From Cyanidioschyzon merolae (lineage: Eukaryota), in the NCBI GenBank assembly GCA_000091205.1, contig AP006497.2: DNA of 64,000 bases. One strand, 5' to 3'. This document shows positions 10,091 to 32,560 of this stretch, one piece after another. Within the stretch, counting starts at the first letter, position 1, and every line of letters starts with the position of its first letter. The position numbers and the translations under genes were made by a program. The notes under the pieces were generated by a model. The model did not search any database and was not told the origin of the DNA. It saw only the letters and a list, made by a program, of their open reading frames with translations.

Positions 10091-10325
10091 TCTGTATCTA
10101 GCAGGCATGAGTCATGGCGCGCGTCTCGCTGTTGAAGGAAACAGTGATCCTGATCATTAGCGTAACGCTATCATGTACATGTTGTAACGGTGTTGACGTC
10201 ACAGCAAACTATACTTATTTGTTCGATTGTGTTTTGAACTTCAACCAAGTGTGTTCAAGTGATTTTTCGCAGTTAATCGCAGACGTGCTCGAGAGTGCTC
10301 TCTTTCTCATAAAGAAAAAAGAAGG

Positions 10326-10787
10326 ATGGTTATGGAAACGGAAGTTGATTATTCTGGAGGCCCAGGGACGCCGGCTGCCAGAAAAAAACAAAAAATAGTG
10401 CCGAGTCCGGAAGAAAAGGAAGAGAAGAAGAACCGAAGGGGGGAAGTCCTACGTCGAATGCGGCAAAAAGGACGGCTGTACGACGAGATGATGGTGAAAA
10501 CCTTTCTTCTTGGACATATCAAGGATCCGTACAGGGAAAAGCTGCGAGACGCTATCGAAAAACGTGTCGACTCGTACTCCAAGAGTATTGTCAAGGCTTC
10601 GTCAGGACTGATGCATTTGGCGAGGGAGATGTACCGCGACGTGACGCACATGGAAACAGTCGATGTTCCTGACGAGTTTTTCGACAAGATGTTTATTCGT
10701 CAGCTGATGCCTGGCACAGAGAAAGCGCGGAAGGCAAACGAGCGGGTTCACGCTCTTCACGAAAACTACGCGGAATTCCGCTTCTAG
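10326..10787 (+). CDS. Transposon ORF1 (153 aa). The N-terminus is K/R-rich and NLS-like (PAARKKQKIVPSPEEKEEKKNRRGEVLRRMRQKGR); function unknown. It may be the N-terminal part of the Fanzor protein.
   Basis: It is conserved in copy B (VKTFLLGHIKDPYRE(K/R)L(R/Q)DAIEKRVDSYSKSIVKASSGLMHL). Both copies share an in-frame TAG separating it from ORF2. Copy B's equivalent is broken by a nonsense and a frameshift. Confidence 0.35.
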   Translation: MVMETEVDYSGGPGTPAARKKQKIVPSPEEKEEKKNRRGEVLRRMRQKGRLYDEMMVKTFLLGHIKDPYREKLRDAIEKRVDSYSKSIVKASSGLMHLAREMYRDVTHMETVDVPDEFFDKMFIRQLMPGTEKARKANERVHALHENYAEFRF

Positions 10788-10832
10788 GGTGCCCGATACA
10801 AGGGTGACGCGGATATTTAAAGCTATGGGGCG

Positions 10833-12479
10833 ATGAAGTACCTCACGAATCTGAAGAACTATTTGGCAATGAACCTCGAACGTTTCATGATACGCGCCGT
10901 GTTTGCGCTCTACCCTGGCATCTCTTGCAAAGGGATATGGACGATTATCAAAGGCATCACGAACGATCGCAAGCATGAAGATGAGGTCGAATTTGTCGTG
11001 AAGAAGGCGTCAAACGAGAGTACGAATTAGGATTCCGTCATCCGTGCGGTTGTACAAAAGCACTGTGCGGTACTGGGGTTGGCGAATCCAGCAGGAAAGA
11101 TATCAGAGTTGAAAAAAGATAAGGACAGATACTATCGCCTCGTCCTACGGTATTTCGTGTTTCTCGACCGAGAGCTCGAACGCAAGGCGGAGATGATGGT
11201 GAATAGGGAAAAATGAAGAGTGGGAGAGACGGAAGGCTTTCCTGATGGGGAAGCGCTTCGACGTGGTTCCAATGTGCAACATCAGGTCACATTTTGTGAG
11301 TATCGATTCAGGCGTCCTTCACGGCATCATGAAGGAGATCAGTCCCGAGTTCAATGTTAACAGGAAGGAGTTCAGCGGTGAAAACTGGGAGACGTCCTGG
11401 AAGAATATCTTCGATTTCAAACGTCTGAAAGTGAGCGAGCAAAAGTTGTTCACTGGGATGATCGAAACCGATGGAGTAGCCTTGTGTGTACACTATCGGC
11501 GGTTGAAGAAAGATCGTCCAGTTCCGCCTTCGACTGCGCCCTTGACGAAGGATGAAGAAAACAAAGAGGAGGATCCTGCGATGCAGGAGGTTGAGGATAG
11601 CGACCTTGTCGTTGGCGCGGCGAAGGATGAAGATGGGAAGGAGGCGGATCCTGCGACACAGGAGGTGCAGGATAACCACTATATCGTTGGCGCGGCCCCT
11701 GGGAATACGAATATCATAACCATCGCAGCACCGTAGCGTGTGGAAGATGGTACTGATGGTAACTTGCGTCAGAAATATATGCGTCTTTTGAGGTTCTCGA
11801 GAGCGAGATACTATCGAGAATCCGGTATGATGAATGCAAAGAAGAAAATCGAGATATGGAATGCAGGAACGAAAGAGCACCTGGAAGCTTTGAGCGAGGT
11901 GACTAGCCGAGGTGCCGACTTTCAGGCTTTTCTGAAATTCATGGATGATCGCGTTGCCCATTGGGATGCACTGTACGAGGAGTATACAAAGCCCCGGTGG
12001 GCACGTTTGCGTATGAATCTATACGGTGGGAGGCAGCGGGCGTTTACCAACTTTTTTAATGAGTTGAGTGCCCTCAAAGAAGACGAGACTCAAAGGCTCG
12101 TAATAGCGTACGGAGCAGGGCGATGGAAGACCCAAGAAGGAACTACGCCAGCTCGAACGACAAGAACGTACAAGGAGTGTCCACGGCTTTTCGTTACAAT
12201 ACCGATAGATGAGTTCCGAACGTCCTATACACACCATGAACTGGGGTGTACCCTTCAGAGGGTCGTGATGGAAAAGTGCCAGAGGAGCCCTGAGGAAATA
12301 GCAATTACGGACCGCTGACAGACGAGCAAATAGGAAGGAGGGCGAAAGTTCGTGGACTTCTTGCATTAGTGAGTACAACCAGTGATGGCAAGAAACGTAT
12401 GGAGTTTGTTAACCGAGACTTTAACGCCGCAGTCAATATACGGAGATGTGCGGTGCTGGAGAATAGACCTCCAGAGTAG
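10833..12479 (+). pseudogene. Fanzor (eukaryotic TnpB-like, RuvC-fold RNA-guided endonuclease) pseudogene, copy A
   Basis: Motifs read directly: [15 protein letters not shown] (RuvC-I Asp), IPIDEFRTSYTHHELGC (RuvC-II Glu plus Zn-finger-like HHCC), and RDFNAAVNIRR (RuvC-III, in a different frame at 12348..12479). Disruptions relative to copy B are a GAG>TAG at ~11031, a 2-bp deletion near 11190, an AAG>TAG at 11737 and a 2-bp deletion near 12320. Confidence 0.7.
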
Positions 12480-12942
12480 ACAAGAGGGAATTTTGTTGGA
12501 CAACCCCTCAAAGTGGAACTATATGAGAGAACGTTGGAAGCAGTAGTAGGTGGCCGGTCCGAAAAGACGAGGAGGCGTCTGCACATCAGCTGAAGACTTC
12601 TTGTCTAGGGCCCCGGTCGCCGCCACTACTGTACACGCCCGACGTCGTTCGACTTTAGAAGGGCGTTCGGATCGACTAGAACTTGGGGCAAGTATCCGAA
12701 GTGTTCGGGACTCAGTGTCGACAGGGCTCTTCCCGACCCATGCTTCTGAAGCATGCTCTTTTCATCGGATATGCGGTCGGTAGTCTGCGTCATCCTGCAG
12801 CGTCTCTCTGCTGACCGGTACTCTCCCGAATTCGGCACACTGGCAGTAGAACGCATCCTTCACATGCCTTGAACCATACCCTCCACTGCCAACATGCGCG
12901 CCCTGGGGTCGCCCAAAGCATCCGCGACCGAGCTTTGCATAT

Positions 12943-14250
12943 CTAGAGAATGATCTGACCGGATGCAGAGGTCGACAAGGTCTTGTGAGGCAGCACAATG
13001 CAGTTGCGAATCACAACGCCGCCGTCGCACTCGACATGCGATCCGAGGACGCTGACACGTCCGGCCTCGGACTCGATGCCGTCACCCTCGACACGAGCCC
13101 AGGGCCCAATGACCGACGACCAGCCGATGATGCTGTTTGCGATATACGCATGCTCTCTAACTACACAATCTTCTAGGATGATGCAGTGCTGAAGGCGAAC
13201 GCCTGCACCAATCACGCAGCCAGCTCCAATGGAAACGTTGGGTCCCACTTTCGCTGACGACGCCACCCGGGCCGTCGAGTGTACGAAAACAGCGCCTACA
13301 AATGTAGGACTCGTACTACTCATTGTCACTGAACCACGGCCTAGGTCGTCAGTGCTCTTGGTAAAGAGCCTGGAGGCTAATGCCTCCGGGCGGTAAGCAT
13401 GATCCGCAAGCTGCTCGGGATGCACCTCAGCATAGTGCTCCAGATAAAGTTTCGAGGCAAGCAGCGCAGCGGCCGGTTCCTTGATCTGACACCAAAAATC
13501 TTTGTGCTCGTAAATATATATAACTTTCCGACCCTCATAATGCATGATAACATCCTGCTCGAGTCTGATATGGTTGCAGTCGCTCTCGCTAACGCTAAAA
13601 AGGCTTCCACCGCTCGCGTTCTCAGTGAGCGCCCAGCGACTGCACTCTACACACGTCTTCTCCAGAAGTTCATAAAATGAACCTGTCGTTGCGATATAGA
13701 TACCACAGTTGATCAGGTTGCTTACCCAAGTCTCGGGTTTCTCTACATAGTGCAAGAGTTCGCAGGTATCGGGGTGCTTCACCATGCATCCGTACGCTCT
13801 TGCGTCCCCGGAAGGAGGCACCGTCTTTCCCAGCACAGTTAGTGGTTTGCCGTGTTTGCGATGAAACGCCAGCATATCGTTGAGAGGAAAGCTGGAGGCT
13901 ATGTCGCAGTGTAATATGAAGAGCACCTCGGGAGAGCCAGAGCGAATAGCGTCGCGGTAGCGCCAGATCCCGCCGGCTGTGCCTAGGGAGCTCTCTTCGC
14001 GCAGGTATCGCACACCAATACCCAAGTGGTTCGAGGCGTTCTGCACGAAGTCTGAGAACAAACTCTCGTCGTAAAACCCGAGAAGAATCACTTCGAAGAG
14101 CCCAGGGACCTGTGCCAATCGTTCGAGGTGATGCAGGATCATCGGCTTTCCCGCGATAGGGATCAACGGCTTCGGCAGGTCAAAGGATAACGGGCGAAAG
14201 CGCGTGCCCTTGGACCCGCCTCCTACTAGTATCACAGCCTTGGCGCTCAT
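12943..14250 (-). CDS. GMPPA: Mannose-1-phosphate guanylyltransferase alpha-like (GMPPA/GDP-mannose pyrophosphorylase A family)
   Basis: The 436-aa reading starts at ATG 14250 (MSAKAVILVGGGSKGTRFRPLSFDLPKPLIPIAGKPMILHHLE). It has the nucleotidyltransferase N-domain, HYVEKPETWVSNLINCGIY, a C-terminal left-handed beta-helix hexapeptide region, and ends ...VLPHKTLSTSASGQIIL, as GMPPA does. The ORF track's extra 120 upstream codons begin at TTG and are probably not translated. Confidence 0.85.
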   Translation of the reverse strand: MSAKAVILVGGGSKGTRFRPLSFDLPKPLIPIAGKPMILHHLERLAQVPGLFEVILLGFYDESLFSDFVQNASNHLGIGVRYLREESSLGTAGGIWRYRDAIRSGSPEVLFILHCDIASSFPLNDMLAFHRKHGKPLTVLGKTVPPSGDARAYGCMVKHPDTCELLHYVEKPETWVSNLINCGIYIATTGSFYELLEKTCVECSRWALTENASGGSLFSVSESDCNHIRLEQDVIMHYEGRKVIYIYEHKDFWCQIKEPAAALLASKLYLEHYAEVHPEQLADHAYRPEALASRLFTKSTDDLGRGSVTMSSTSPTFVGAVFVHSTARVASSAKVGPNVSIGAGCVIGAGVRLQHCIILEDCVVREHAYIANSIIGWSSVIGPWARVEGDGIESEAGRVSVLGSHVECDGGVVIRNCIVLPHKTLSTSASGQIIL

Positions 14251-16392
14251 CAGCGACTGCCCTTTCAGAGGTGCCGCTGGAAGAAGAACGCGGCTCCACG
14301 ACTCGAGCGCAAGCGTCAAACGAAAGCGCTGAGGCTGTACGGCAGCGCCGATGGCGATGTGGCAGGCGCCGGCTATGCCGCCTCTTTTAGCGCTCGGTAG
14401 CCGAGCTACGATTTTCAAGGGGTTAGATCGATGAGCCATTTCAGGGTTTACTCGCTTTGCATATGCGGACGGGGAACAATGAAGAAACTTAACTGGCATC
14501 ATACTAGCCTCTGTGCGGTATAATCTAGGAGACATGCTTCTTTGAGGAACACTTGCTAGATCCAGTAGTCTCTGGGCAGTGGAGGCACGCCCGTCCACGG
14601 CAGATATCAATGGTCTACAGCTGTGTCAACTATGACTGAAATACTGAACTGATCGCGCTGCTCTTGTGTTACGATTTATTCCGAACTTTTATGAAACAAT
14701 GTGGACTCAACAATCGAAGTTCAGAAATAAGGGCGTACGGATTCGTAAATGGTTTTGGGATTCTTGTTCTTTTTTGGAGTGGCTGCCTCGACTCTTTGCC
14801 GCTGGAACACGAAACGTCCCTGAAACTATGGCGATTTGCCACGCCCTCGGATAAAGGTTCGAAAAATAGCCGATAACTACCACTCGTGTCATATGTGTGA
14901 CCTTCCGATGCTCTGCTCTCCGCTCAGGGAGCATGTCCAAACCATGAACTCATAAAGGTTTCGATGCTCCTGCTTGGAAGCAACGCAAGGCAACATCGAT
15001 TTGCACCGCTGGATGGACTACGACGAAAACACTTCATGTCGGCCCTGGACGACTTTCTTACGCGATCACGCTACGAGTTCACTGGGAATGTCACGTTAAA
15101 TCATCGCTTCGTATCAAAAGATGAGTCCTCCTCTTATTGCAGCCATCAATGCGAACGATGCTCGATATTAGCATGGCGCCTGTCACGGGATAAGCTCCCA
15201 GACGCTCCTGTCTCTGTTTTGTCCATGCCGAAACGCCACTTGGTCTCGGACTTGTGTCACCGCTACAATCCCTGCAACTGCCGGCAGCGCCATCAGTATC
15301 CACATAGGTTGCAGAGAACGATCGATGTTTCTCGACTTGTTCTCCAGCGTGGACTTTTATTCCGGTACTTGTTTCGTCATGGAAAACGATTCGTTCCTCA
15401 AATTCGTTATCGCATAGAATAGTGTCCGATCGCGCGCCCAGCGAGCAGCGTCATAGCCAAGGGGATCTCCTGGAATACGCCCATGATCGTCGGGTACGAT
15501 ACCGGGCGCGGAGAAACGAAGAGGATGTCGAAGCAGAGCCTTCTCTACCCGTCAAGGGCGACTACCTAGCGATAAAGCAGACGTTTACGCGCCACAGGGG
15601 GCACGTGAACGAGGCTTTATCGTCGACAAATCGAAAAACCTGACCAAAGCAAAGTCTAGCCGCTGCGAAATGCGTACAGATGCCGTATTCAAAGAAATTG
15701 AAGGTCACAAGCGCAGCATTTCCTCCGACTGCTGGAAACGGAACTTGAGCTGAAAAACAGACCGGCGTATTCAAAGCCAGAGGCAAGGAGAAAGAAAAGG
15801 GAACCGTCACAAAAAACGCCTCAGCTGCTTGTTTCGATGACAGTGGGATTATAACCATACTTAAGCATGTGCGTCCGAGATCAGTAAGAGGATCGGTTCG
15901 ATTTTTAGTCTGACATAGGTGCAGGTCTGGGCGTGGAGAGCGTTCACGCAGCGCGCGCGAAAAGGCTCACCAGTGGGACTACGCTGTCTCGGCAGCGAAG
16001 CAGCAGGGCGGAGACACTCCACACGACACGAAATCACCGGCGAGTCTCGCAGGCAGCGGCTTGTGCCTCGCCTTGGGCCATGAATGCACCTAACAAACGT
16101 GGTCAACGCGCTGGAGCATACGCGTCGAAAAAACACAGCTCAGTGCGGCAAACTCACGAACGCTCATTGCGGGAGCGTGCGGAACACGCACATAGCGCTG
16201 TTGCGTGAGCAAGAAACAGTATTTACGAAGCATTCTAGTCCTGGTCAAGTTGCGAGTGACGGACTTACATGTCCTGCGTATCGCGTACCGGGTTTATAGG
16301 CGGGCTGTGGGCGCGCTCCCCTCGAGTCGCAAGGTGTTGCAGGCTTTCCGCTTCGGTGCCCTTCAAACGTTCCACTGCAAAAACCTGATCAA

Positions 16393-18339: not shown

Positions 18340-18599
18340 CGTATCGCCTCGTACGTAACAAAAGGCAAATAAAATGCAGCGTCTTGCGCGCTGCTACCAG
18401 CACCCTTTGAGTCCGTAACAGCACGCGATCCCGTCGCATCTGCAGCGTCCTCGAGGGGGGGCGTTCAAAATCCAGTGGCGCGCATTCGGGGACACGCCAC
18501 CAGCGTCACGCGGGCAGGCGCGTCGCTTTGGGACGCACGCGCGATGTCACAGATGCATCGCAGCTCGATCAGGACAGAGGTAAGGTTCTTTTCTATACA

Positions 18600-19350
18600 T
18601 CAAGGAATGAAATTGAAATTCATGGACATGTGTATAAAATTTGTAATTTCGGACACGTCATGTTTGGGACGGAGCGCTTGGCGATTTCTTTCCGATGACG
18701 AGTCGGTTCCATTGACCATAGACCCCAGATTGCGGGATGGGTATTGGCTTTCGGAAAAGCGCCCATCATGAAGCACCAACACTCAAGTTCAGTCTCCCAT
18801 ACTTCATTTCGGATATACCGGTCATTTCGTATGTTCCACCGTGCGCAGATTACCTGCCGTGAGCACCCGCCTTTGCGCCTAAACCGCTGTACCAGATGCA
18901 TGACGGAGACAGCACGGCATTGACAAACCACAGAGGGCGTCGGCCCGAGGCGTGGTTCATCCGACACCGGATCGGAGTACATAATAATTCTGGGAGCCTG
19001 CAAGCTGCGCAGACAGACCTACTGCCTGTGACAGCGCGAAGGTATAGACTAGGAGTCCACTGCGACCAGGGCGACGCTCAGACGCAGCACACGTGCTCCG
19101 AGTTCCAGAATGAAGTGCGTTTCGGACGATCCGCTCACATCTTAGTACAGCACCCGCAACTGCAGAGTCGCACGGAGCACCTGCCCGGCAGACTCGATCA
19201 GTCCGCGGAACCTTCCGCCCAGAAGACAAACTTTCGACAAAACGAAAAGGTTCTCCCTCTTGTAACGTTCACCGTAGAAGCAGAATGAAATCTTTATCTC
19301 GTTCCTACTTAGTAGTTCGTTTCTGTTCTTTTTTCTATACAGCCCGCGCC
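18600..19350 (+). repeat. Dispersed repeat family B, copy 2
   Basis: Colinear with 9340..10090 at ~70% identity, lying between the MESH1-like gene start and ORF 19376. Confidence 0.5.
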
Positions 19351-19375
19351 AGGCGCGCACTTCATTTCCTCGACA

Positions 19376-23200: not shown

Positions 23201-23583
23201 GATGAGCTGATGCCTTCTAAAATCGGTGCGACGCAACAAGAGAACACAAACACCTTGAGTACCAGGAGCAATCGCACGAAACTTCCGTGAACCTGGCCCC
23301 CGCATGCAGCAGCCGTGCACGATCAGATAACCCACAACGGCAGCAGGCAATTCAGTGATCCCAATCCGTGCAGCACTTGCCGACTCCTCGCCGCTGGCTG
23401 CACCCTGCGCTGACTAACGCGCTGCCCAGCGACGGTGTCCTGAGTGTAACAAACGCGATCGAGTACTGTCGGAAATGAGTATGCAAAACAACCGCCATTC
23501 TCTCCCGAAACCAACTGCTTGTTGCCGTGCACCTGAACAGTAGATGCTGTGAATCGTTAGGATACCTTCCGGCAAATTAAAAA

Positions 23584-24729
23584 TTACGCGTTAGAAGCGT
23601 CCATATCGATGTTCGAAATACATGAAATCGCAACATCGGAGGCGTAGCCCGAGCTCAGTTGCTCGATGATGGCCCGTAGACGAACAAGCTCTTCGTCTCG
23701 CTGAGCGAGCTGCTCTTCCAGAGACTGAAGGTGCTCACGCACGCGTCTGCGGGTAAATTTTCGCAGCGAGAAACGCCCGGGCAGCTCACTCTCCGCTGTG
23801 TTTCTCCGGTTCTCTTCCGTTTCTTCTATCTTCTTTCGCAACTGCAGCAGCTCTCGCTCCGCTTCACGCGAACGCTTTTGTTCGTTGCCAAGACCTGATT
23901 CGGCTCGTCGCGCTTTCCGTTCGGCCTCAGCGAGCTGCTCATCGCGGGCTGCCAACTGCAAAACGAGTTCAATCTGGCGACGTTCTAGCTCCTCAGCGCG
24001 AGACGCAATGGGCTCTAGATGCGCCATTCGAGCGTTCAGGACCAGGAGTTGCTTATCGAGGTCGTCACGCTCTCGCCGTAATCGCGCATAGTGCCCTTGC
24101 AACTGTTTGTTTTCCCGTTCAAGAGCGTCCAACCGTGACCACGTAAGTGAAGTCTGTGAGCTCGCTTCATGACGTTCGTGTGTTGAAATCCCGCGCCAAT
24201 GAACGTGTTTTAAGAGCGATAGCGGTTCAAGAAAAAGTTCCCGCGATGGTGAGTGCGGCTCGCTGACGCACCCAGCCGTCTGAGCACCGTGGTCCCGGCG
24301 CGGGGCACTGCCTGCTCCACCCGAAAAAACTCCCAGAAAGCTTCTTGGACTCGGCAGACCCGACCCAGTAGAGAACTGCTTCGTAAACTGTGGGCACTCG
24401 CTGGAGAGCTCCTCCGTGCTCCGACCTGAACGCTGAGTGTCACCGGATCCGGACGAACAGATGAGCGTGGCAACAGCAACCAGTGCAAACGCCGCCCCGT
24501 AACCCAGACTTTGCAGCGTCAGTAACCAAAACAGGTGGCTCAGGCTGGGAAACCCGTTGTTCCTGGAAAACACCTGAAACGAATGCAAGCTATAGGCAAA
24601 GCTCACAGCGAGCGTGATTCCCGCAACGACCAGCCAGGTCGCCCTTCGAAAAGAGGTGCGCTGTGGCATGCCACGCTCCCACTCACCGGCAGAAGCAGCA
24701 GGGCGTTCCCGGTTCACTAACTTGGACAT
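23584..24729 (-). CDS. Membrane-anchored coiled-coil protein: two N-terminal TM helices plus a C-terminal coiled coil rich in E/R/L heptads
   Basis: ATG at 24729. TM-like segments are WLVVAGITLAVSFAYSL and LFWLLTLQSLGYGAAFALVAVATLICSS. The long coiled-coil region is LERENKQLQGHYARLRRERDDLDKQLLVLNARMAHLE...ELLQLRKKIEETEENRR. No specific family recognised. Confidence 0.5.
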   Translation of the reverse strand: MSKLVNRERPAASAGEWERGMPQRTSFRRATWLVVAGITLAVSFAYSLHSFQVFSRNNGFPSLSHLFWLLTLQSLGYGAAFALVAVATLICSSGSGDTQRSGRSTEELSSECPQFTKQFSTGSGLPSPRSFLGVFSGGAGSAPRRDHGAQTAGCVSEPHSPSRELFLEPLSLLKHVHWRGISTHERHEASSQTSLTWSRLDALERENKQLQGHYARLRRERDDLDKQLLVLNARMAHLEPIASRAEELERRQIELVLQLAARDEQLAEAERKARRAESGLGNEQKRSREAERELLQLRKKIEETEENRRNTAESELPGRFSLRKFTRRRVREHLQSLEEQLAQRDEELVRLRAIIEQLSSGYASDVAISCISNIDMDASNA

Positions 24730-25895
24730 TAACTCCTAAAGTGAAGCTGGACGGACCCCTGCCTCCACAACAACTGGAAATCCAAGTCGCTTTCGCTCCC
24801 CAAATTCTGTGATCCGTTGACTCGCTGCGCAGTACGGCCGCGCGCCCTGCTCCAGGTGATCGCGCGCTCTGGGGGGGAGACCCTGAGAGCGCCGGCGTCG
24901 CCTTGGCGTCCATCTACCGGTCCAATCAGCGACAAAATGGACAGATCAAAAGACACCGCCTGCGCACGGTTGTTGCGAGAACTTTCACCTCAATGGTGTT
25001 TCGCTCCCAGGGGCGTGTGATGAAAACGTATTTTCGCGGTTTATGGCAGAACTGTTCCAAGTACGTCCATTTGAAGGACTAAAATTTGCAAGAGAAGGGC
25101 ATGGACGTGTAAGTCGGGGACCCAGAAAGCCGTCATGAATAGATGCCGAACAAAAGAAAAAATCCTTTTCTCACCGATTATCGAGCGTAGAAGAGCAAGT
25201 GATGATGATGATGAAGAAGGTGGCAGAGAAGAGGGGAGGTAGACGGCCAAAAGCGCATGCTTGATGCAACAATGACGAAACTACAGTGGCACAGAGGTCA
25301 CGAGTGACTTCGAGGAATCATTGCAAATGTGAGTTCCACCAGAGTCAATAAACGCAAAGAGTTCGTGAAACGGGACTTCGACACCGTCATTCATATCAGA
25401 CGATAAGTGATGCCGACGACGAGACCCGAGGAGGTGTCACAATCCTACTTTCTGGGGCAGCCTCTCAGGCTCGATATGTGCCTGGGTAAACTGAACCCGA
25501 TAGCATCGGGCCGCTCAAAAAAAGGCTGGGAGCGTCTGCGCGTGGGTATATGTATTTTCCTTCCGTGGTCGGGAAACGTATTTTGGTTCATTGGCTGTCG
25601 ACATGCGTCGATTGCTCTCGCACAGTGATGCTCGCCTGGATCGCTATGATCGCGGATCGCGGCTCCTTTCAGAAGCACTGGGCAGCGATAGAGACGTGCG
25701 CTGCGCCACAGTCCAATGTAGAGCAATATGTGCCGCTGTCACTCGCGAGGAGAGCTGTGGGCTCGCTAATCCTTGAAAGCGATACAAGAGGTGCACTACG
25801 GGCACGAGACGCACTCGTTGGACTGCTTCACTTGGCGGAAACGAGCAGCCAGTGGAATTTGCGGACGAACAAAAGTCAGCGGCATGAAGACCAAC

Positions 25896-26489
25896 CTATG
25901 CGAACGATATCCAACATGATATACTTATGATCGCTACTATTCGACCGAGCGTTGACCTCAGCCTCTTTCGCGCGTGTTTTGCTGGTTTTCGTGGTCGAGC
26001 GATACCTTCACGAACCCGAAGACGGCTCCGCATCGTTGTGACAACGGATAGAGCGCTGCATTCTCGGTTGCAGGCGTCTCCCTGGAGCCGCAGCGCATCC
26101 AGCCCATATTGCAGATCAGCATCGATGGCATCCACCGGGGCCCGAGCCCATCCCATGCGCCCCATTGTTGAAAGCGGTCGCCGTTCCGATGTCCTTGGAT
26201 CCAGAGTTTCTGGATACCCGGTTCCTTCAAGTCGCAAACGTTCGCGATAGCCAGCAACAGCGCATGCCTGATGGCATACAGAATGTGACAGCCCACAAAC
26301 TAGCGTTTCCCTGCGGATAGCGTCAATGGGATGAGGACCATCAAGGCGCCGAGGACTCGCGTCCATCACGTCGTCGAAATCGATACCTGTCTCGTGATCG
26401 GAGAAGACAGAGTATCCAGCTGAATCTAGCCAGCTGGCCACCGCAACGGGCACTCTCCGTCCGACGCCACTTATCGCGTTGATGAGCAT
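25896..26489 (-). CDS. Hypothetical protein (197 aa). Its N-terminus, MLINAISGVGRR...VAVASWLDSAGY, is loosely reminiscent of PP-loop (SGGxDS) ATPases but lacks the consensus.
   Basis: ATG-initiated ORF lying immediately downstream of POP5 on the same strand, tail-to-head. No confident family assignment. Confidence 0.3.
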   Translation of the reverse strand: MLINAISGVGRRVPVAVASWLDSAGYSVFSDHETGIDFDDVMDASPRRLDGPHPIDAIRRETLVCGLSHSVCHQACAVAGYRERLRLEGTGYPETLDPRTSERRPLSTMGRMGWARAPVDAIDADLQYGLDALRLQGDACNRECSALSVVTTMRSRLRVREGIARPRKPAKHARKRLRSTLGRIVAIISISCWISFA

Positions 26490-26639
26490 TCTGGTGGCGC
26501 GAACCCATTTTATGCAAGCAGAACAGGTCAGTCTCAGGGGGCCTCTAGGCGGGCGCTGCGGAGGGCACCACCTCGAAAAGTGACATGTCCTTCGTATCCG
26601 CTTCTGTTCTGGAGACGTGCAAGCGTTATCTGACGGAAG

Positions 26640-27224
26640 CTATCTTTTCTCCACCGCATGCTCATCGATAAAGAGTGGCAACTCGCGACGCATGGCTTGC
26701 ATCATCCGATTCTGGCAGCTGCGAACGCTACCTCCAACGTGGACGACTCGGACTCGAAGCGGAACCCACTGTCCCGTTGCTGTCAGCTGGACCTGGTTCA
26801 ACAACGAACAGGCCGCCCATAACAGCCGATACTGATCCCGTGGTGCTCGTAAAATGGCTATTCCAGTCTCAGCGTCAAAGTATTTAGTTGCGAGGGAAGG
26901 GACCAATAGACACCAGCCCAAGTCACCGAAGCAGCTTTCGATAGTTGCCCGCAGCGCAGCGTGGAGTTCCCGCTCACCAAACGGCAACGGCAGGCGGTAT
27001 ACTTCAGCGGTGCGCGCTTGGTGGGCGTCCGCTGTATTCCCAGTCGACGCGGGCCCGACTTTTGAAAAGTATCTGCGTTTCTGCCCAACTAGAGCGCCGC
27101 GCTCCATAGGCTGGCCGGACGGCTCTCCGCAACGAGACACTTCAGCCTCCGTCCGTGGCTGCGTTCCAGCGTCAGACGCGTTTCGAATCTGACAGACAAG
27201 GTAGCGGCATCTATAACGCACCAT
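26640..27224 (-). CDS. POP5: RNase P/MRP protein subunit POP5 (Rpp14/Pop5 family)
   Basis: ATG at 27224. MVRYRCRYLVCQI matches MVRFKHRYLLCEL. ELHAALRATIESCFGDLGWCLLVPSLATKYFDAETGIAILRAPRDQYRLLWAACSLL and VHVGGSVRSCQNRMMQ match the conserved Pop5 core. There is a ~45-aa insertion after the first conserved block. Confidence 0.75.
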   Translation of the reverse strand: MVRYRCRYLVCQIRNASDAGTQPRTEAEVSRCGEPSGQPMERGALVGQKRRYFSKVGPASTGNTADAHQARTAEVYRLPLPFGERELHAALRATIESCFGDLGWCLLVPSLATKYFDAETGIAILRAPRDQYRLLWAACSLLNQVQLTATGQWVPLRVRVVHVGGSVRSCQNRMMQAMRRELPLFIDEHAVEKR

Positions 27225-27295
27225 TTAGACTTGAAGACCTCGAGTCGAAACCTAGAACAGTGGCTCCGTCCGTGAGACGCGCTTGTCTGAAAATA

Positions 27296-27877
27296 ATCTC
27301 GAGCCTGCGCTACATCCGGGTCAGATGAAAAAGGAACAGTAAACAGTTCGTTCTGGTCTAGATGTTTGATTTTTTCGGATCTTATGAACGATGTACAGCA
27401 TCGACACTCAATGACCAAAAGTAGCACTATTGGATTCATATGCTGTTTACCGATGCTCGGTCGCCGTTTCGGGATGGCATCTTCGGCGTTTCGTAGCTGG
27501 AATCGTAATGGAACCTAAACCATGAGCATTTATAACGCCCGCGAGCAACGGCTCCTAAAAATACCCGATATCGTTATCCAGTGTATACGGACTGGCCTCC
27601 ACGCTTCTCTGCTCTGTATGTGCAGCGTGCCCAAATCGTGCGGTCTTCGAGCCTCTTCGGTTTCTGTTCCGAGGCTACGACTGGGCGCATCAATGCTGGC
27701 CACTGGATTCTTGGGGAACTGCGGTCGACGTGCTCCCTTGGCGGCCTGTTTGCATGGTCATCCCGAAAGTTCACGGAGATGCTCATGTCAAACGATCGAT
27801 TCGGTTCGAAAGACATATCCTGCTCTCTTTGTGGCCACCGAAGACTCCCGTTTTTTTGAACAGCACCGTGATACCTT
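27296..27877 (+). repeat. Dispersed ~1.3 kb non-coding repeat family R, copy 1 (3'-truncated, ~0.58 kb)
   Basis: Near-identical to 46776..47357 and 55986..56550. It starts tgcgctacatccgggtcagatgaaaaagg and diverges from the other copies after cagcaccgtgatacct. Confidence 0.8.
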
Positions 27878-28686
27878 CCTCTAATGGGTATAAACCACCA
27901 GACACTCCCTTGTACTGCTGAAATTCGAACATGGGCGAAAGTTCGGCAAATTCAAACTCGGACATCTGGGAGGGAAAAATGAAGCATTCACAAAAGTATC
28001 CTGCAAATCACGCTATTGAAGACTGTGGGAAGTGACCCAAACTTTAGTGTGCATGCACGTGTGAATGAGCTTGTCCTAGTTTATTCCCACAGAGAGGTAC
28101 TTGCCATTCTGTAGAAGCGGCGGCGACGACGACGACTACTCAAGTCGCTCGCAGGCGTTCTCAGAGACTGATGCTATCGGCGGAAACTGCACCCCAGCGT
28201 CACCTCTAAAGCAGCATGCACAGCAATGTAGATAGGAACCAACGCGTCGAAAAACGAATTGACAGTTTCAATATCGCACGTCTCGTTCAGCGCATGTCGC
28301 GAACACGGCGCATGCACCCTCGTTGCCGAATCCCTAAAACAGCCAGCTGGAGCCCCAGAGTCGTTTCATACATCGAATTTATTCACGACGAGCATGTATT
28401 CAGGATCTGCGCTTCATGCGGGGAGGCGACGCTCCACGACCACCATGCCATCTCGTCGCAAACAGTGCAACTTTCCATACCCGGGCCGAGGCTGCTGATG
28501 TAGGCGAACGATTTCTAAGGCCTTCGTCACGAGTGCCCTGGTGCCCATGCCATCACGCACAGAGGTCACCCGCGGTAGACATGCTTGGAGCACCAGGCTA
28601 TGTAGACGCCGATGGAAGCTGTGCTTTCGAAATCGTGTTCATTGCGATGACAACTCTACCAAGCTGGTACATTCACTTTCGGCAAT

Positions 28687-29592
28687 TTACGAGCGATAAA
28701 GGGCGCTCGTTTCTGGTAGCGGTGCTTCCATGCTACTATTCCGCATGCGAGCTTGGCGTCGAGATGACATCGCAGGAAAAAGAGGCGGAGAGTACGAGCG
28801 CCGCCGGCGTCTGGCCCAGGATGGATTCCTTGTGCTACGATCCAGTGACCGCGGGCGCCGAGTATCGAGTCCCTGTCGCCAAGGCGTCCTTGTGGTATTT
28901 CGCACAAGCGTACAAGAACCAGATTCAGTGGCGGGATCTCCGTTCGGCGCGGGAGGCCCCTTCTGCGAGAACTCCACAGAAACCTGGCGGCAACCGATGT
29001 AGGCTCCATCCATCTCTGAGCGCGCTCTGATCGCATCGTCGAGTGACCGGAACTCGATGAACGCAAAATGCTTACGCCTCTCAATGCGTTCAATCGGCCC
29101 AAATCGGTGGAAATGGATGAGCAGGTCGCGGCTTGTGATTTCATCAGGGTCAAAGTTGACCACAAAGAGCGTTTTGGATGTCGTTACCGAGTTCTCCAAA
29201 CACGCCCCATCCCCGCCTGTGATGCTATCTTCGCCCCCAAGAGTCTTTTCGCTCTCCTGCAGTCTGCTGATTGACGCTGGAGCGGTACCTCGCGCCCATT
29301 CCGCTGTGAGGATCCGAGACTGCGATCCCAGGCGCTGGCCGTTCAGAGCAGCAATAGCGTGTTCGTAGGCTTCAACCGCTGTGTCTTCACTAAAGTATAC
29401 AAAGCAGTAATTGCTTTTCATTTCTATACGCTGAACTTTGCCATAGGGTTCCACCAACTTCTCAATATCCCGCTGTGGAGCACGCCCAATATTCGCTATG
29501 TAAAGCGCTTTCACCCCGGTCGGCGTTACCTTCGGTCCTGAAGAACCCCAGACATCTGAATTCGATAGCCCCTCAAACTCCCTGGTGCTCAT
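28687..29592 (-). CDS. Serine/arginine-rich splicing factor-like protein with two RRM domains and a C-terminal RS-rich tail
   Basis: The first ATG is at 29592; the ORF-track start at 29721 is GTG. RRM1 is KALYIANIGRAPQRDIEKLVEPYGKVQRIEMKSNYCFVYFSEDTAVEAYEHAIAALNG. RRM2 is TLFVVNFDPDEITSRDLLIHFHRFGPIERIERRKHFAFIEFRSLDDAIRARSEMDG. The RS-like tail is RRPRSLDRSTRNPSWARRRRRSYSP. Confidence 0.7.
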   Translation of the reverse strand: MSTREFEGLSNSDVWGSSGPKVTPTGVKALYIANIGRAPQRDIEKLVEPYGKVQRIEMKSNYCFVYFSEDTAVEAYEHAIAALNGQRLGSQSRILTAEWARGTAPASISRLQESEKTLGGEDSITGGDGACLENSVTTSKTLFVVNFDPDEITSRDLLIHFHRFGPIERIERRKHFAFIEFRSLDDAIRARSEMDGAYIGCRQVSVEFSQKGPPAPNGDPATESGSCTLVRNTTRTPWRQGLDTRRPRSLDRSTRNPSWARRRRRSYSPPLFPAMSSRRQARMRNSSMEAPLPETSALYRS

Positions 29593-29779
29593 AACCCTGA
29601 AATATGGCGAGAAGCGGCAAAAAGAAGGGTTCACTACTTTAGATCTTCGGTTCGCCAAGTAGGGGCGAAATAAAGCGGCTGCAACTCCCTGTTTGAACGT
29701 GTCTGGAACCGCTCCGGACACCTAGGGTCTGAGTACCAATTTGCCTCCTCGAAAAAATGTTTCAAAATCCGTAAGCACA

Positions 29780-32560
29780 CGCCGTCAGCGGTGAACGCTG
29801 CCGTACGAACCAGAGGATACCTGTCCTAAGCGCAAGCAATATACCTGGATCACGGAGATGCGTACGCGGCACGACGTCTGCGTCCGGGCGGCCTGGTATC
29901 ACGTCCGCGACAAACGTCTTTCAAAAGAAACACGTTGCTGCCAGTGGTACAGAAGTGGCCGCAAACGCGCCTTAGACAAATTGGCACCAATTGTTGTATA
30001 GACGCCTCCCCGTCTTTTTCGACCGGCCACCTACTACTACTGCTTCCAAATTCTTCTCATATAGTTCCACTTTGAGAGGTTGTCCAACAAAATCCCTTCT
30101 TGTCTACTCTGGAGGTCTATTCTCCAGCACCGCACATCTCCGTATATTGATAGCGGCGTCCAAGTCTCGGTTCACGAATTCCATCCGTTTCTTGCCATCA
30201 CTGGTTGTACTTACTAGTGCAAGTAGTCCACGAACTTTCGCTCTCCTTTCCATTTGCTCCTCCGTCAGCGCTCGGTACTTTTTTATATTCTCAGGGCTCC
30301 GCTAACACTTTTCCATCTCCACTCTCTGAAGTACGCACCCCAGTTCATGGTGTGTATACGAGGTTTGGAACTCATCCACAGGTATCGTAACGAGACGCCT
30401 TGCGCACTCCTTGTACACCCTCGTCGTTGGAGCTGGCGTAGTCCCATTTCGTGTCTTCCAGCACCCTGCTCCGTACGCTACGACGAGCCTTCGAGTCTTG
30501 TCCTCTTTGAGGGCACTCAACTCATTGGAAAAATTCGCGAATGCCCGCTCCTTCCCACAATAAAAATTCATTCGAAAACAAGCCCATCGGGAATTTGTAT
30601 ACTCCTCCCATAGTGCATCCCAATTGGCTACACGAATTGCCATGAATTCCCGAAAAGCTCCAAAGTTCGCTCCTCGGCTAGTCACCTCGCTCATAGCTTC
30701 CAGGTGATCTTTCATTCCTGAATTCCAAGTCTCGATTTTCTTCCTCGCATTCATGGTTCCTGATTCTCGATAGTATCCCGCTGTCGAGAACCTCAAAAGA
30801 CGCATGTCTTTCTGACGTAATTTACCATCAGCACCATCTTCCGCACGCTTGGGTGCTGCGATGGTTATGATATTCGTATTTCCAGGGTCCGCACCAACGA
30901 CAAAGTCGTTATCCTCCACCTCCTGCATCGGAGGGCCAGCCTCCTCTTTGTTTTCTTCATGCTTCACCGCGTCAACGACAAGGTCGTGCCCCTCAACCTC
31001 CTGTGTCGCAGGATCCGCCTCCTTCTCATCTTCATCCTTCGTCACGTCAACGACAAGGTCGTTAGCCTCCACCTCTTGCATCGGAGGACCAGCCTCCTCC
31101 TCTTCTCCATCCTTCGTCACAGGCGCAGCCGAGGGAGGGACTGGCCGATCTCTCTTCAACCGCCGATAGTGTATACACAAGGCTACTCCATCGGTTTCGA
31201 TCATCCCAGTGAACAACTTTTGCTTGCTCACTCTCAGACGTTTGAAATCGAAGATATCCTTTTAGTACGTCTCCCAATTTTCACCGTTGAACTCCTCCCT
31301 GTTAACATTGAACTCGGGACTGATCTCCTTCATGATGCCGTGAAGGATTCTGGAGTCGATAGTCACAAAATGTGACTTGACTTTCCACATTGGAACCACG
31401 TTGAAGCGCTTACCCATTAGAAAAGCCTTCCGTGCCTCCCACTCTTCATTTGTCTCTTCACTCAGTTTCACCTCTGCCTTGCGTTCGAGCTCTCGGCCCA
31501 GAAACACAAAATAGCGCAGGATGAGGCAATAGTATCTTTCCTTATCTTTTTTCACCTCTGATATCTTTTCTGTTGGATTCGCCAACCCCAGTACCGCACG
31601 GTGCTCTTGTATAACCGCGCGGATGACGGAGTCCTCATTTGTGCTCCTGCGTGACGCCTTCTTGTAGACAAATTCGACCTCATCTTCACGCTTGCGATCT
31701 TTCATGATGCCATTGATAATCGCCCATTTTCCATTGCGAGAGATGCCCGGATAGAGTGCAACCACGGCGCGTATCATGCAACGTTCGAGGTTCTCTGTCA
31801 AATGGTTCTTCAGGTTCGTGAGGTACATCATCGCCCCATAGTCGTAAATATCCCGGTCACCCTTGTACCGAGTACCCTCGAACCCCTAAAAGGGATGTTT
31901 TTCGTGTAGGGCATGCACTTGCTCATTTTTCCCTCCGTGTTTGCCCTGAACCAAGCATCAGGTGACGAATAAAGGTCACGTCAAAAACTCGTCTGGAATC
32001 TCGACCGTTTCGATGTGCATCACGTCGCGATACATCTCCCTCACCAAATGCATCAGTCCTGACGACGCCTTGACAATACTCTTGGAGTACGAGTCGACAC
32101 GTTTTTCGATAGCGTCTTGCAGCCTTTCCCTGTACGGATCCTTGATATGTCCAAGAAGAAAGGTTTTCACCACCATCTCGTTCTACGGTTGTCTTTCTTG
32201 TCGCCTTCAACGTAGGGCCTCCCACTTTCGGTCCTTCTTCTCTCCCTTTTCTTCTGGACTCGGCACTGTTTTTCGTTTTTTTCTGGCAGCCGGCGACCCT
32301 GGGCCTCCAGGATCGTGGACTTGCTTTTTCATAGCTTTCCTTTTTTAGTTTTTTTTTGAAAAACAACGCTCTGTGAACGCTTCTGTTATATACTGCGAAA
32401 AAAACTTGAATACACTTGTTTGAGGTTTGAAAGAAAAATGAACTAAAAAACTGTACTCTGCTAAGACCTTAACGGAAATCCAATTTTTCCAGTACAACAA
32501 CACGCTACTGATCAGGATCGCGTTTCCCTTCAACAGCGGCATTCGCATCGTGTCAGTAGA
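29780..32560 (-). mobile_element. Fanzor/TnpB-family transposon, copy B (inverted relative to copy A; degenerate)
   Basis: Colinear with copy A across a 5' small ORF (MRMPLLKGNAILISS vs MARVSLLKETVILIIS), ORF1, ORF2 and the 3' non-coding region. Homology decays gradually toward 29780. Confidence 0.7.
30104..31831 (-). pseudogene. Fanzor/TnpB-like RuvC nuclease pseudogene, copy B. The single reading frame is retained but interrupted by in-frame stops.
   Basis: All four ORF fragments (31262..31831, 30302..31231 and the RuvC-III segment ending at TAG 30104..30106) share one frame. The interruptions are TCC TGG>TAC TAA at ~31260 and CAG>TAG after ...VEMEKC. The motifs read [34 protein letters not shown] and RDLDAAINIRRCAVLENRPPE. 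Confidence 0.7.

What the first reader, a model, noticed from the sequence alone, without database searches (positions are those of the whole stretch)
10100..32560. Two inverted, diverged copies of a Fanzor/TnpB-type RuvC-nuclease transposon bracket a 17.4 kb block of housekeeping genes
Both copies share the same architecture: a 5' small ORF, then a K/R-rich ORF1, then a TnpB-like ORF2, then a long non-coding 3' region. Copy A is 10100..~12760 on the + strand and copy B is ~29780..32560 on the - strand.

ORF2 carries an unmistakable RuvC triad context: GADPG/GAAPG (RuvC-I), IP(I/V)DEF(R/Q)TS (RuvC-II) and RD(F/L)(N/D)AA(V/I)NIRR (RuvC-III). The copies are roughly 80-85% identical and have independent inactivating lesions, so they are old paralogous insertions rather than a recent duplication.

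Between them lie the GMPPA, MESH1-like, coiled-coil, POP5 and SR-protein genes. Inverted TE copies like these could mediate an inversion or form a composite element. A eukaryotic TnpB relative next to core genes is the most biologically notable content of this window.
Basis: partly seen in the sequence, partly recalled or inferred. Interest (0 to 1): 0.8.

Follow-up and report, generated by a model that had tools for sequence, protein, structure and literature searches.

The report
Two dead Fanzor1 transposon copies
The window comes from the red alga Cyanidioschyzon merolae, and the two inverted repeats are decayed copies of CMe-1A, a Fanzor1 (eukaryotic TnpB-like nuclease) transposon family described from this same genome in 2013, so the finding is real but already known.

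Summary
The repeat is real. Window 10127-12634 (+) matches 32538-29947 (-) at 83% identity.

The window is C. merolae 10D: its AdoMetDC is 443/443 identical to XP_005537448.1.

Both repeats are copies of the published Fanzor1 element CMe-1A (Bao & Jurka 2013; about 150 copies, each about 80% identical to the consensus). They match its 3169-bp consensus at 82-89%.
- Copy A is 9427-12665 and is full length, including the 5' TE-N2 module.
- Copy B is 32591-29915 and has the core only.

Each copy holds one roughly 735-codon ORF, not three ORFs. Each ORF is broken by 6 in-frame stops and 2 frameshifts. Only one lesion is shared. Copy A has also lost the RuvC-I aspartate (GAAPG).

A profile built from distant relatives hits only solved Fanzor1 structures in the PDB (E = 4.5e-20, 3.9e-11, 3.8e-6).

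There is no sign of an inversion or a composite element. Environmental contigs at 98-99.8% identity are colinear with the window across copy B and across the copy A-GMPPA junction.

Side observations suggest a Helitron2-like carrier: hairpins at both termini, a T-rich 5' flank and a TT 3' flank, no target-site duplication (TSD), and variable 5' modules.

Verdict: correct identification, ordinary content, already known.

The parts
9427..12665 (+). Copy A: full-length CMe-1A-type element (TE-N2 module plus Fanzor1 core), a pseudogene
   Evidence: blastn of the published 3169-bp consensus: 9441-11620 = consensus 15-2196 (82.2%) and 11616-12636 = consensus 2117-3137 (88.6%). Ends placed by motif positions.
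9427..10069 (+). TE-N2_CMe-like 5' module of copy A
   Evidence: Matches consensus 1-~650, which Bao & Jurka report as 95% identical to the separate repeat TE-N2_CMe. A solo copy of the same module lies at 18693-19363.
10070..10089 (+). 5' hairpin at the start of the Fanzor core in copy A (AGCTCGCTCGATACGCGCAC)
   Evidence: Many copies start at this point, each with a hairpin of type GCGCTC-ggt-GAGCGC or GCGCG-gtcgata-CGCGC.
10326..12608 (+). Disrupted Fanzor1 ORF of copy A. Stops at 10785, 10818, 11028, 11734, 12477 and 12591. A -2 frameshift near 11208 and a -1 frameshift near 12301.
   Evidence: Codon-wise comparison with the consensus CDS, 84.2% identity; three-frame translation.
11546..11696 (+). 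In-frame 75-nt tandem repeat (2 units) encoding an acidic 25-aa unit just before RuvC-I
   Evidence: Tandem Repeats Finder. The consensus has 1 unit; copy number varies between family members.
11689..11703 (+). RuvC-I motif of copy A, GAAPG: the catalytic Asp is replaced by Ala
   Evidence: This Asp (D484 in P0001 numbering) is invariant in the alignment of 33 relatives.
12205..12219 (+). IDEFR: the relocated RuvC-II glutamate of copy A
   Evidence: E656 is invariant and aligns with the DEFRTS/DEYKTS motifs of solved Fanzor1 structures.
12411..12428 (+). NRDFNA: RuvC-III of copy A
   Evidence: R724 and D725 are invariant.
12643..12665 (+). Terminal 3' hairpin of copy A (version 1, partly decayed), flush with the element end; the flank starts TT
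29915..32591 (-). Copy B: Fanzor1 core element without the TE-N2 module, a pseudogene
   Evidence: blastn of the consensus: 32554-31045 = consensus 687-2193 (84.7%) and 30971-29915 = consensus 2117-3169 (86.8%). The 5' start TCGACGCC lies at 32591.
29972..32332 (-). Disrupted Fanzor1 ORF of copy B. Stops at 32209, 32185, 31888, 31264, 30304 and 30106. A -1 frameshift at 31983 and a +1 frameshift at 31934.
   Evidence: GADPG at 30895-30881, VDEFQ at 30379-30365, NRDLD at 30172-30155.
30895..31120 (-). The same in-frame 75/78-nt repeat, 3 units in copy B
29915..29934 (-). Terminal 3' hairpin of copy B (version 2: CGUGUUUC-uuuu-GAAAGACG); the flank starts TTTG
18693..19363 (+). Solo TE-N2_CMe-like element inside the 17-kb block
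   Evidence: Consensus 1-668 at 80.9%. Its 5' flank ends ...TTTC and its 3' flank starts TT.

Best explanation
The two repeats are old, independently inserted and independently decayed copies of the C. merolae Fanzor1 transposon family CMe-1 (Repbase CMe-1A).

What the family encodes:
- One intronless protein of about 734 aa.
- It has a K/R-rich N-terminus, a helical middle part and a TnpB-type RuvC domain.
- The catalytic site is rearranged: Asp in GxDPG; Gly at the canonical RuvC-II position (AYGAG); a substitute Glu in VDEFRTS; Arg-Asp in NRDxNAAxNI.

How it probably works (inferred): by homology with the Fanzor1 proteins studied experimentally, an intact family member should be an RNA-guided double-strand DNA endonuclease. 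Its guide RNA would be transcribed from the 3' end of the element, with the guide reading into the flank. That activity is not shown for this family.

Status in this window (shown): neither copy can make the protein. Each has 6 stops and 2 frameshifts, and copy A has lost the RuvC-I Asp. They are inert relics that happen to flank 17.2 kb of housekeeping genes with their 3' ends facing inward.

How the family moved: not established. The element encodes no transposase. Its ends look most like a non-autonomous Helitron2-type element.
For: Organism: AdoMetDC at window 37512-38843 is 443/443 identical to XP_005537448.1 of C. merolae 10D.

Family identity:
- The published CMe-1A consensus aligns to both copies at 82-89%.
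- The published CMe-1 protein is collinear with the repaired ORF.
- The paper reports about 150 copies at about 80% identity to the consensus, without TIRs.

Fanzor1 homology:
- 1467 relatives at E<=1e-3 among protein representatives.
- The 33-sequence alignment has invariant D484, E656, R724, D725, N727, A729 and N731.
- Its profile hits only PpFz1 9cf0 (4.5e-20), SpuFz1 8gkh (3.9e-11) and GtFz1 9cer (3.8e-6) among 177,635 PDB sequences.

Mechanism by analogy: Fanzors bind an RNA from the 3' non-coding region next to the right end, cut DNA beside a target-adjacent motif (TAM), carry a relocated RuvC-II Glu and have N-terminal nuclear localisation signals (PMC10530073).

Decay: the lesion list is.

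Age: a contig only 90% identical (L008) carries the orthologous copy B.
Against: - The single repaired protein and a shallow family profile gave no significant Pfam or PDB hit.
- PF07282 is only weakly matched: E=0.23 in P0001 and 0.0023 in P0189.
- The canonical C4 zinc ribbon of the Bao-Jurka motif is not evident in this family (TSYTHHELGC...EKCQ).
- The AlphaFold model from 37 close relatives was unusable (pLDDT 36.8), so there is no structural check of the active site.
- No conserved RNA structure was recovered by RNAalifold over the last ~120 nt in 35 copies. An omega-RNA is therefore inferred, not shown.
- No nuclease activity has been reported for this family in the papers read.
Confidence: 0.93

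Rival explanations
1. The pair acts, or has acted, as a unit: either a composite transposon carrying the 17-kb gene block, or substrates for an inversion of that block.
For: - The copies are inverted and 83% identical over 2.5 kb, which in principle is enough for ectopic recombination.
- One contig at 90% identity (L008) is orthologous to copy B and its outer flank. It loses all similarity to the window exactly at the element's 3' end, and it carries the other version of the terminal hairpin.
Against: - L012 and L013 (99.1-99.6%) are colinear with window 33890-27583 through copy B into the RRM gene.
- L004-L006 (98-99.8%) are colinear from GMPPA into the 3' end of copy A.
- The downstream flank of L008 matches nothing in the window, neither the flank of copy A nor GMPPA. 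It is therefore not an A-B inversion, and it may be a chimeric metagenome assembly across a >100-copy repeat.
- Both copies are dead. Their 3' ends face inward, and copy B lacks the 5' module.
Confidence: 0.04
2. The two copies arose by an inverted segmental duplication of one insertion rather than by two transposition events.
For: - They share the TAG at codon 692 and an expanded 75-nt repeat.
- They are closer to each other (17% divergent) than the sum of their distances to the consensus.
Against: - Similarity stops at the element ends, and no flanking sequence is shared.
- Copy A has the TE-N2 module and a version-1 terminal hairpin. Copy B lacks the module and has a version-2 hairpin.
- The TAG at codon 692 also occurs in other family members, so it marks a subfamily.
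Confidence: 0.02
3. On mobilisation: CMe-1 and TE-N2 are non-autonomous Helitron2-type rolling-circle elements, like the Chlamydomonas Fanzor1 carriers CRe-1 to CRe-3.
For: - Hairpins at the core 5' start and flush with the 3' end, the latter in two versions that keep the stem.
- The 5' flank of TE-N2/CMe-1A starts is T-rich, mostly ...TTTC.
- The first two 3' flank bases are T in 92% and 94% of 36 copies.
- No TSD was found.
- 3' ends are intact while at least three different 5' modules are joined to the same core.
- Bao & Jurka describe exactly these traits for Helitron2: hairpins at both ends, insertion between TTTT and T/C, 5'-variable but 3'-intact copies.
- An automated annotation% of C. 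merolae TEs helitrons.
- The nearest named relative is from a green alga.
Against: - No RepHel-encoding partner with these termini was sought or found.
- Asymmetric terminal inverted repeats were not convincingly present: one 10-nt match by eye in the consensus, not kept in many copies.
- The T-rich stretch may belong to the element rather than to the target.
- All copies are old, so the ends are blurred.
- Bao & Jurka left the family unclassified.
Confidence: 0.35
4. On mobilisation: the family is retroposed by the resident non-LTR retrotransposon, being LINE-dependent in the way a SINE or HAL1 element is.
For: - A degenerate LINE with RVT_1 lies next to copy B.
- In five loci, 5'-truncated LINE copies end 5-30 nt before a Fanzor core.
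- The 3' end has a defined hairpin followed by a short T/G-rich tract.
Against: - Most copies start at one defined point (consensus ~648-690) rather than at scattered truncation points.
- No TSDs were found.
- Solo LINE 3' ends finish in A7-8 and lack the Fanzor hairpin.
- LINE and Fanzor also occur head to head (window; L051). This fits nesting in TE-rich regions.
Confidence: 0.05

Closest known systems
CMe-1A / CMe-1 Fanzor1 element of Cyanidioschyzon merolae (Bao & Jurka 2013, Mob DNA 4:12; PMC3627910)
   Same: - Same genome.
- 82-89% nucleotide identity to the 3169-bp consensus.
- Same single 734-aa ORF.
- Same 5' TE-N2 module in copy A.
- No TIRs and no TSDs.
- Decay of about 80% identity to the consensus, as published.
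   Different: - Copy B, like most environmental copies, lacks the TE-N2 module and starts at consensus ~650-690.
- Both window copies carry extra 75-78-nt in-frame repeat units and a TAG at codon 692.
Solved Fanzor1 nucleases: Parasitella parasitica PpFz1 (9cf0), Spizellomyces punctatus SpuFz1 (8gkh), Guillardia theta GtFz1 (9cer)
   Same: - Significant profile matches over the WED/RuvC region.
- The motifs TDGV, DPGR, DEFRTS, RGLLWC-type and NRD...N all align.
- The relocated RuvC-II glutamate is present.
   Different: - Only remote sequence similarity; a single sequence gives no hit.
- No clear C4 zinc ribbon.
- No associated transposase.
- Activity and guide RNA are untested.
- The window copies are pseudogenes.
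Chlamydomonas reinhardtii CRe-1/2/3 Fanzor1 in non-autonomous Helitron2 elements (Bao & Jurka 2013)
   Same: - Algal Fanzor1.
- No TIRs.
- Terminal hairpins.
- T-rich insertion context.
- Intact 3' ends with variable 5' ends.
   Different: - The CRe genes have 5-10 exons, while CMe-1 is intronless.
- CRe termini match verified Helitrons, and no such partner is known here.
- CRe truncated copies often have TSDs of 7-19 bp, and none were seen here.
Bacterial IS200/IS605 TnpB with omega-RNA (e.g. ISDra2)
   Same: - RuvC D...E...D nuclease core.
- An element with subterminal hairpins, no TIRs and no TSDs.
- A guide RNA expected at the 3' end, reading into the flank.
   Different: - Eukaryotic host.
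- A much longer N-terminal half with a K/R-rich (NLS-like) start.
- The RuvC-II Glu is relocated.
- No TnpA.
- Pfam OrfB models are not significantly matched.

Membership tests
CMe-1A (Repbase family, C. merolae) | Nucleotide similarity to the family consensus along its length | tested here: met
   Copy A covers consensus 15-3137 at 82-89%. Copy B covers consensus 687-3169 at 85-87%.
CMe-1A (Repbase family, C. merolae) | 5' ~635 bp shared with TE-N2_CMe | tested here: met
   Present in copy A (9427-10069). Absent from copy B, which is a core-only variant, as are about 30 environmental copies.
CMe-1A (Repbase family, C. merolae) | No TIRs and no recognisable TSDs | tested here: met
   The consensus ends are not inverted repeats (read). 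No shared k-mer of 7 nt or more between the 5' and 3' flanks in the three loci tested.
Fanzor1 / TnpB-like RuvC nuclease | Significant sequence-profile similarity to established members | tested here: met
   The profile of 33 relatives hits only Fanzor1 chains in the PDB: 9cf0 at 4.5e-20, 8gkh at 3.9e-11, 9cer at 3.8e-6. The single sequence and the shallow profile gave no hit.
Fanzor1 / TnpB-like RuvC nuclease | Conserved D ... [TS][TS] ... RD catalytic constellation | tested here: met
   D484, E656, R724 and D725 are invariant in 33 relatives. Both window copies keep DEF-TS and NRD. Copy A has D->A in RuvC-I.
Fanzor1 / TnpB-like RuvC nuclease | Rearranged RuvC-II: an inert residue at the canonical position and a substitute Glu downstream | tested here: met
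   AYGAG (Gly) at the canonical position, with the invariant Glu of VDEFRTS about 33 residues later. The criterion comes from PMC10530073.
Fanzor1 / TnpB-like RuvC nuclease | C4 zinc ribbon (OrfB_Zn_ribbon / PF07282) between RuvC-II and RuvC-III | tested here: inconclusive
   PF07282 scores only E=0.23 (P0001) and 0.0023-0.09 in relatives, below the curated cut-off. The sequence shows H, H, C ... C rather than CxxC...CxxC.
Fanzor1 / TnpB-like RuvC nuclease | Structured guide RNA (omega-RNA/fRNA) encoded at the 3' end next to the element end | tested here: inconclusive
   A terminal hairpin flush with the end is predicted in nearly all of 35 copies, in two versions that keep the stem. RNAalifold found no consensus structure, the mean z-score was only -0.66, and no Rfam match was found.
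Fanzor1 / TnpB-like RuvC nuclease | RNA-guided DNA cleavage | not testable with these tools
   Needs biochemistry. The window copies could not make the protein in any case.
Helitron2-type non-autonomous element | Hairpins at both termini | tested here: met
   5' hairpin GCGCTC-ggt-GAGCGC or GCGCG-gtcgata-CGCGC. 3' hairpin CGUCGUUCGA-cuu-UCGAACGGCG or CGUUUUUC-uuuu-GAAAGGCG.
Helitron2-type non-autonomous element | Insertion after a T-rich tetranucleotide and before T/C, without a TSD | tested here: inconclusive
   The 5' flank ends ...TTTC/TTTG/TTTT in 12 of 14 TE-N2 starts. The 3' flank is T at 92% and 94% of the first two positions. No TSD was found. No empty site was available, so these bases may belong to the element.
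Helitron2-type non-autonomous element | Asymmetric terminal inverted repeats, and an autonomous Rep/helicase partner sharing the termini | not tested
   Only a 10-nt inverted match was seen by eye in the consensus. The C. merolae genome could not be searched for RepHel with these tools.
Composite transposon / inversion cassette | The block between the copies moves or flips as a unit | tested here: not met
   Colinear contigs from other strains at both inner junctions. Both copies are dead.

The most novel reading that the evidence does not exclude
The CMe-1 Fanzor1 family and its companion TE-N2 were left unclassified in 2013. They may be Helitron2-type rolling-circle elements.

Features that point this way:
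- Terminal hairpins at both ends.
- Insertion in a T-rich ...TTTC|TT... context without a TSD.
- One fixed 3' end joined to several different 5' modules.

If so, red-algal and green-algal Fanzor1 would share the same kind of carrier.

A weaker add-on concerns genome rearrangement. Dispersed dead copies may still rearrange Cyanidioschyzon genomes, as hinted by the synteny break exactly at the 3' end of the copy-B orthologue in a 90%-identical lineage (L008).
Probability: 0.3. Interest if true: 0.35.

Novelty: already known. Interest (0 to 1): 0.18.

Why it matters
It matters little beyond correct annotation. These are two relics of a repeat family published from this genome in 2013, and neither can encode a nuclease.

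Two points may still be useful:
- The family has nearly intact members in hot-spring metagenomes, for example P0001 (752 aa, 74% identical to the repaired ORF). Together with the published consensus, this gives a candidate thermo-acidophile Fanzor1 that nobody in the papers read has tested.
- The end anatomy collected here offers a testable classification for an element whose mode of movement was left open.

Tried and rejected
- **Pfam on ORF pieces and on the repaired 744-aa protein:** no significant hit.
- **phmmer of the repaired protein and a shallow family profile against the PDB:** nothing. Only the profile with distant relatives worked.
- **Rfam at gathering threshold and tRNA scan of the whole window:** nothing.
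- **First impression of a trypanosomatid, or of an unknown cyanidiophyte:** the listed named hits were only 67% identical. This was rejected when the 90% cluster turned out to contain the C. merolae 10D protein, identical to the window.
- **Stop-codon reassignment (TAG vs GAG):** considered and rejected, because the neighbouring housekeeping ORFs are open under the standard code.
- **The look-up of encoding contigs for P0163:** not on record. The look-ups with P0039 and GMPPA returned only short contigs ending in the repeat.
- **AlphaFold2 with the 37-sequence alignment:** pLDDT 36.8, unusable, so no fold search was run. The last large protein search, needed for a deeper permitted alignment, was not spent because membership was already settled.
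- **RNAalifold on 35 3' ends:** no consensus structure.
- **TSD search:** none found.
- **LINE-mediated retroposition:** judged unlikely.
- **The 11-nt identity between the 3' flanks of L008 and copy A (TTCGGATCGAC):** judged to be part of the common T/G-rich tract rather than evidence of an A-B inversion.
- **A regex scan for 3' ends:** failed and was replaced by alignment-based extraction.

Full report

Yes.
- A blastn of window 9001-14000 against the whole window gives two collinear inverted matches: 10127-11695 vs 32538-30967 (83.1%) and 11543-12634 vs 31044-29947 (82.9%), both with E=0.
- The repeat finder reports eight inverted pairs at 77-89%.
- A global alignment shows that similarity begins and ends sharply and that the flanks are unrelated.

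**2. Which organism?**

- The window has long intron-free ORFs and about 53% G+C.
- The AdoMetDC ORF (37512-38843) has a 100% match in the protein collection. The named hits listed were Cyanidiococcus (67%), Cyanidium (43%) and Galdieria (40%).
- The 90% cluster of the exact match contains XP_005537448.1 of Cyanidioschyzon merolae 10D.
- A direct comparison gives 443/443 identical residues.
- The window is therefore C. merolae 10D or an indistinguishable strain.

**3. What are the repeats?**

I repaired the ORF conceptually from both copies, giving 744 aa.
- Its close relatives are all unnamed proteins from JGI metagenomes, 51-77% identical. There is one weak hit to a Haematococcus protein.
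- A literature search for Fanzor plus Cyanidioschyzon led to Bao & Jurka 2013.
- That paper lists one Fanzor1 family in C. merolae, CMe-1A. It has about 150 copies, each about 80% identical to a consensus of roughly 3 kb, with no TIRs and undetermined TSDs. Its 5' 635 bp are 95% identical to another repeat, TE-N2_CMe (about 70 copies). Some copies are still intact.
- The supplement gives the 734-aa CMe-1 protein and the 3169-bp consensus.

Blastn of that consensus against the window gives:

| Window position | Strand | Consensus positions | Identity |
|---|---|---|---|
| 9441-11620 and 11616-12636 (copy A) | + | 15-3137 | 82-89% |
| 32554-31045 and 30971-29915 (copy B) | - | 687-3169 | 85-87% |
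| 18693-19363 (solo TE-N2) | + | 1-668 | 81% |
| 36591-36793 (TE-N2 piece) | - | 84-282 | 78% |
| 25031-25072 and 25309-25467 (two faint scraps) | + | 841-882 and 2851-3012 | 83% and 68% |

The repeats are thus two members of a family already described from this genome.

**4. Anatomy and state of the two copies**

A codon-wise comparison with the consensus CDS (consensus 906-3110) was made.

Copy A (ORF remnant 10326-12608):
- Stops at 10785, 10818, 11028, 11734, 12477 and 12591.
- A -2 frameshift near 11208 and a -1 frameshift near 12301.
- One extra 75-nt repeat unit.
- GADPG changed to GAAPG, so the RuvC-I aspartate is lost.

Copy B (ORF remnant 32332-29972):
- Stops at 32209, 32185, 31888, 31264, 30304 and 30106.
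- A -1 frameshift at 31983, restored by a +1 at 31934.
- Two extra repeat units and one extra codon.

Only the TAG at codon 692 is shared. Other family members have TTG, TCG, TGG or TAG there, so it marks a subfamily.

In the consensus, the 'small ORF' lacks an ATG and contains a stop (read).

**5. Is it a Fanzor/TnpB?**

A profile of 11 close relatives also finds nothing.
- A full HMMER search of 1.84 billion representatives with that profile finds 1467 proteins at E<=1e-3 and 694 at E<=1e-10. Many are 600-750 aa long.
- Thirty-two of them aligned with P0001 are 24-40% identical to it. They share invariant D484 (GxDPG), E656 (DEFRT), R724-D725 (NRD), N727, A729 and N731.
- The profile of that alignment hits only three things of note in the PDB, all Fanzor1: Parasitella PpFz1 (E=4.5e-20), Spizellomyces SpuFz1 (3.9e-11) and Guillardia GtFz1 (3.8e-6). 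The alignments run through the TDGV, DPGR, DEFRTS, RGLLWC and NRD motifs.
- The canonical RuvC-II position holds Gly (AYGAG), and the invariant Glu lies about 33 residues downstream. This is the 'rearranged catalytic site' described for Fanzors.
- A C4 zinc ribbon is not evident, and PF07282 is matched only weakly.
- An AlphaFold model from the 37 close relatives was unusable (pLDDT 36.8).

**6. How it works**

Shown here:
- Homology to Fanzor1.
- A conserved catalytic constellation in the family.
- Both window copies are dead.

Inferred from PMC10530073 and the solved Fanzor1 complexes:
- An intact CMe-1 protein would bind an RNA made from the element's 3' end and cut DNA matching the flank-derived guide next to a TAM.
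- The K/R-rich N-terminus would act as a nuclear localisation signal.

Evidence on the guide RNA, using 3' ends from 71 metagenome loci:
- A hairpin flush with the element end occurs in nearly all copies, in two versions: CGUCGUUCGA-cuu-UCGAACGGCG and CGUUUUUC-uuuu-GAAAGGCG. Both versions keep the stem, including a G-C to U-A swap and G·U pairs.
- RNAalifold found no consensus structure, and the mean z-score was only -0.66.
- The omega-RNA therefore remains an inference.

**7. Inversion or composite element?**

- L012 and L013 (99.1-99.6% identical) are colinear with window 33890-27583, running through copy B into the RRM gene.
- L004-L006 (98-99.8%) run from GMPPA into the 3' end of copy A.
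- No strain sampled shows the block inverted.
- L008 (90% identical) carries the orthologue of copy B and its outer flank, so the insertion is old. Its sequence beyond the element's 3' end matches nothing in the window, and its last ~30 nt are of the other hairpin version. This is either an ectopic exchange with another copy or a chimeric assembly. It is not an A-B inversion.

**8. How did the family move?**

The element encodes no transposase. Observations:
- Most copies start at consensus ~648-690 with a hairpin.
- At least three different sequences are joined upstream of that point: TE-N2, a 'GTCGGACACGTGTCC...' module, and the 3' end of a LINE.
- TE-N2/CMe-1A 5' ends are preceded by a T-rich run, mostly ...TTTC.
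- The two bases after the 3' end are T in 92% and 94% of 36 copies, followed by an A-poor tract.
- No TSD was found.

These traits match the Helitron2 group that Bao & Jurka defined in the same paper for the Chlamydomonas Fanzor1 carriers. However, no Rep/helicase partner or empty site could be examined. I rate this at about one in three. LINE-mediated retroposition was considered and judged unlikely.

**9. Verdict**

The ORF architecture was misread, and the novelty and the rearrangement role were overrated. The feature is an ordinary member of a repeat family published from this genome in 2013.

Noticed in passing
window 32649-36898 (+): Degenerate non-LTR retrotransposon next to the 5' end of copy B, head to head. 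ORFs 34718-35092 and 35076-35960 hit RVT_1 (E=3.8e-14 and 7e-6). Its 3' end is ...CATGAAAAAAA at 36898. A published automated annotation reported only class II TEs in C. merolae.
   Followed up: partly
L018, L021, L024, L027, L035 (and window 36591-36898): In five metagenome loci, 5'-truncated copies of that LINE, with different truncation points, end 5-30 nt upstream of a Fanzor core. The LINE 3' region itself contains an inverted TE-N2-like piece (consensus 84-282). It is unclear whether this reflects co-mobilisation or nesting.
   Followed up: partly
window 18693-19363 (+): Solo TE-N2_CMe-like element (81% to consensus 1-668), lying between the HD-domain gene and the next ORF inside the 'housekeeping' block. 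It ends with the same hairpin that starts the Fanzor core. Its flanks are ...TTTC| and |TT.
   Followed up: partly
window 25031-25072 and 25309-25467 (+): Two faint matches to the CMe-1A consensus (positions 841-882 at 83%; 2851-3012 at 68%). They may be a third, much older and internally deleted copy inside the block.
   Followed up: no
window 11546-11696 and 30895-31120; P0001, P0006, P0010: An in-frame 75-78-nt tandem repeat just upstream of the RuvC-I strand, encoding an acidic unit of type [24 protein letters not shown]. Copy number varies: 1 unit in the consensus, 2 in copy A, 3 in copy B, 4 or more in some metagenome proteins. Each unit ends like the strand that precedes the catalytic Asp.
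   Followed up: partly
L008 3964-6327 vs window 29915-29940: A contig 90% identical to the window across the outer flank and copy B loses all similarity exactly at the element's 3' end. It also carries the other version of the terminal hairpin. This is either ectopic recombination between Fanzor copies or a chimeric assembly.
   Followed up: partly
window 12477-12479 and 30106-30104; other loci: Codon 692 of the family ORF is TAG in both window copies and in several other copies, but TTG, TCG, TGG or ACG elsewhere. The 42 codons after it stay well conserved at the DNA level (89% between A and B, the best-conserved segment). This could reflect an overlapping RNA or DNA signal near the 3' end.
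   Followed up: partly
window ~27583-27876, 47053-47345, 56248-56540: The last 294 bp of contig L013, colinear with window ~27.6-27.9 kb, also match two other places in the window at 96-97% on the opposite strand. This is a short dispersed repeat unrelated to the Fanzor element.
   Followed up: no
P0001 (locus L001 10001-12259; L007): A nearly intact family member of 752 aa with no internal stops, ending 33 codons early at a TAA. It comes from a hot-spring metagenome contig and sits among ordinary algal genes. It is a candidate for functional tests.
   Followed up: no
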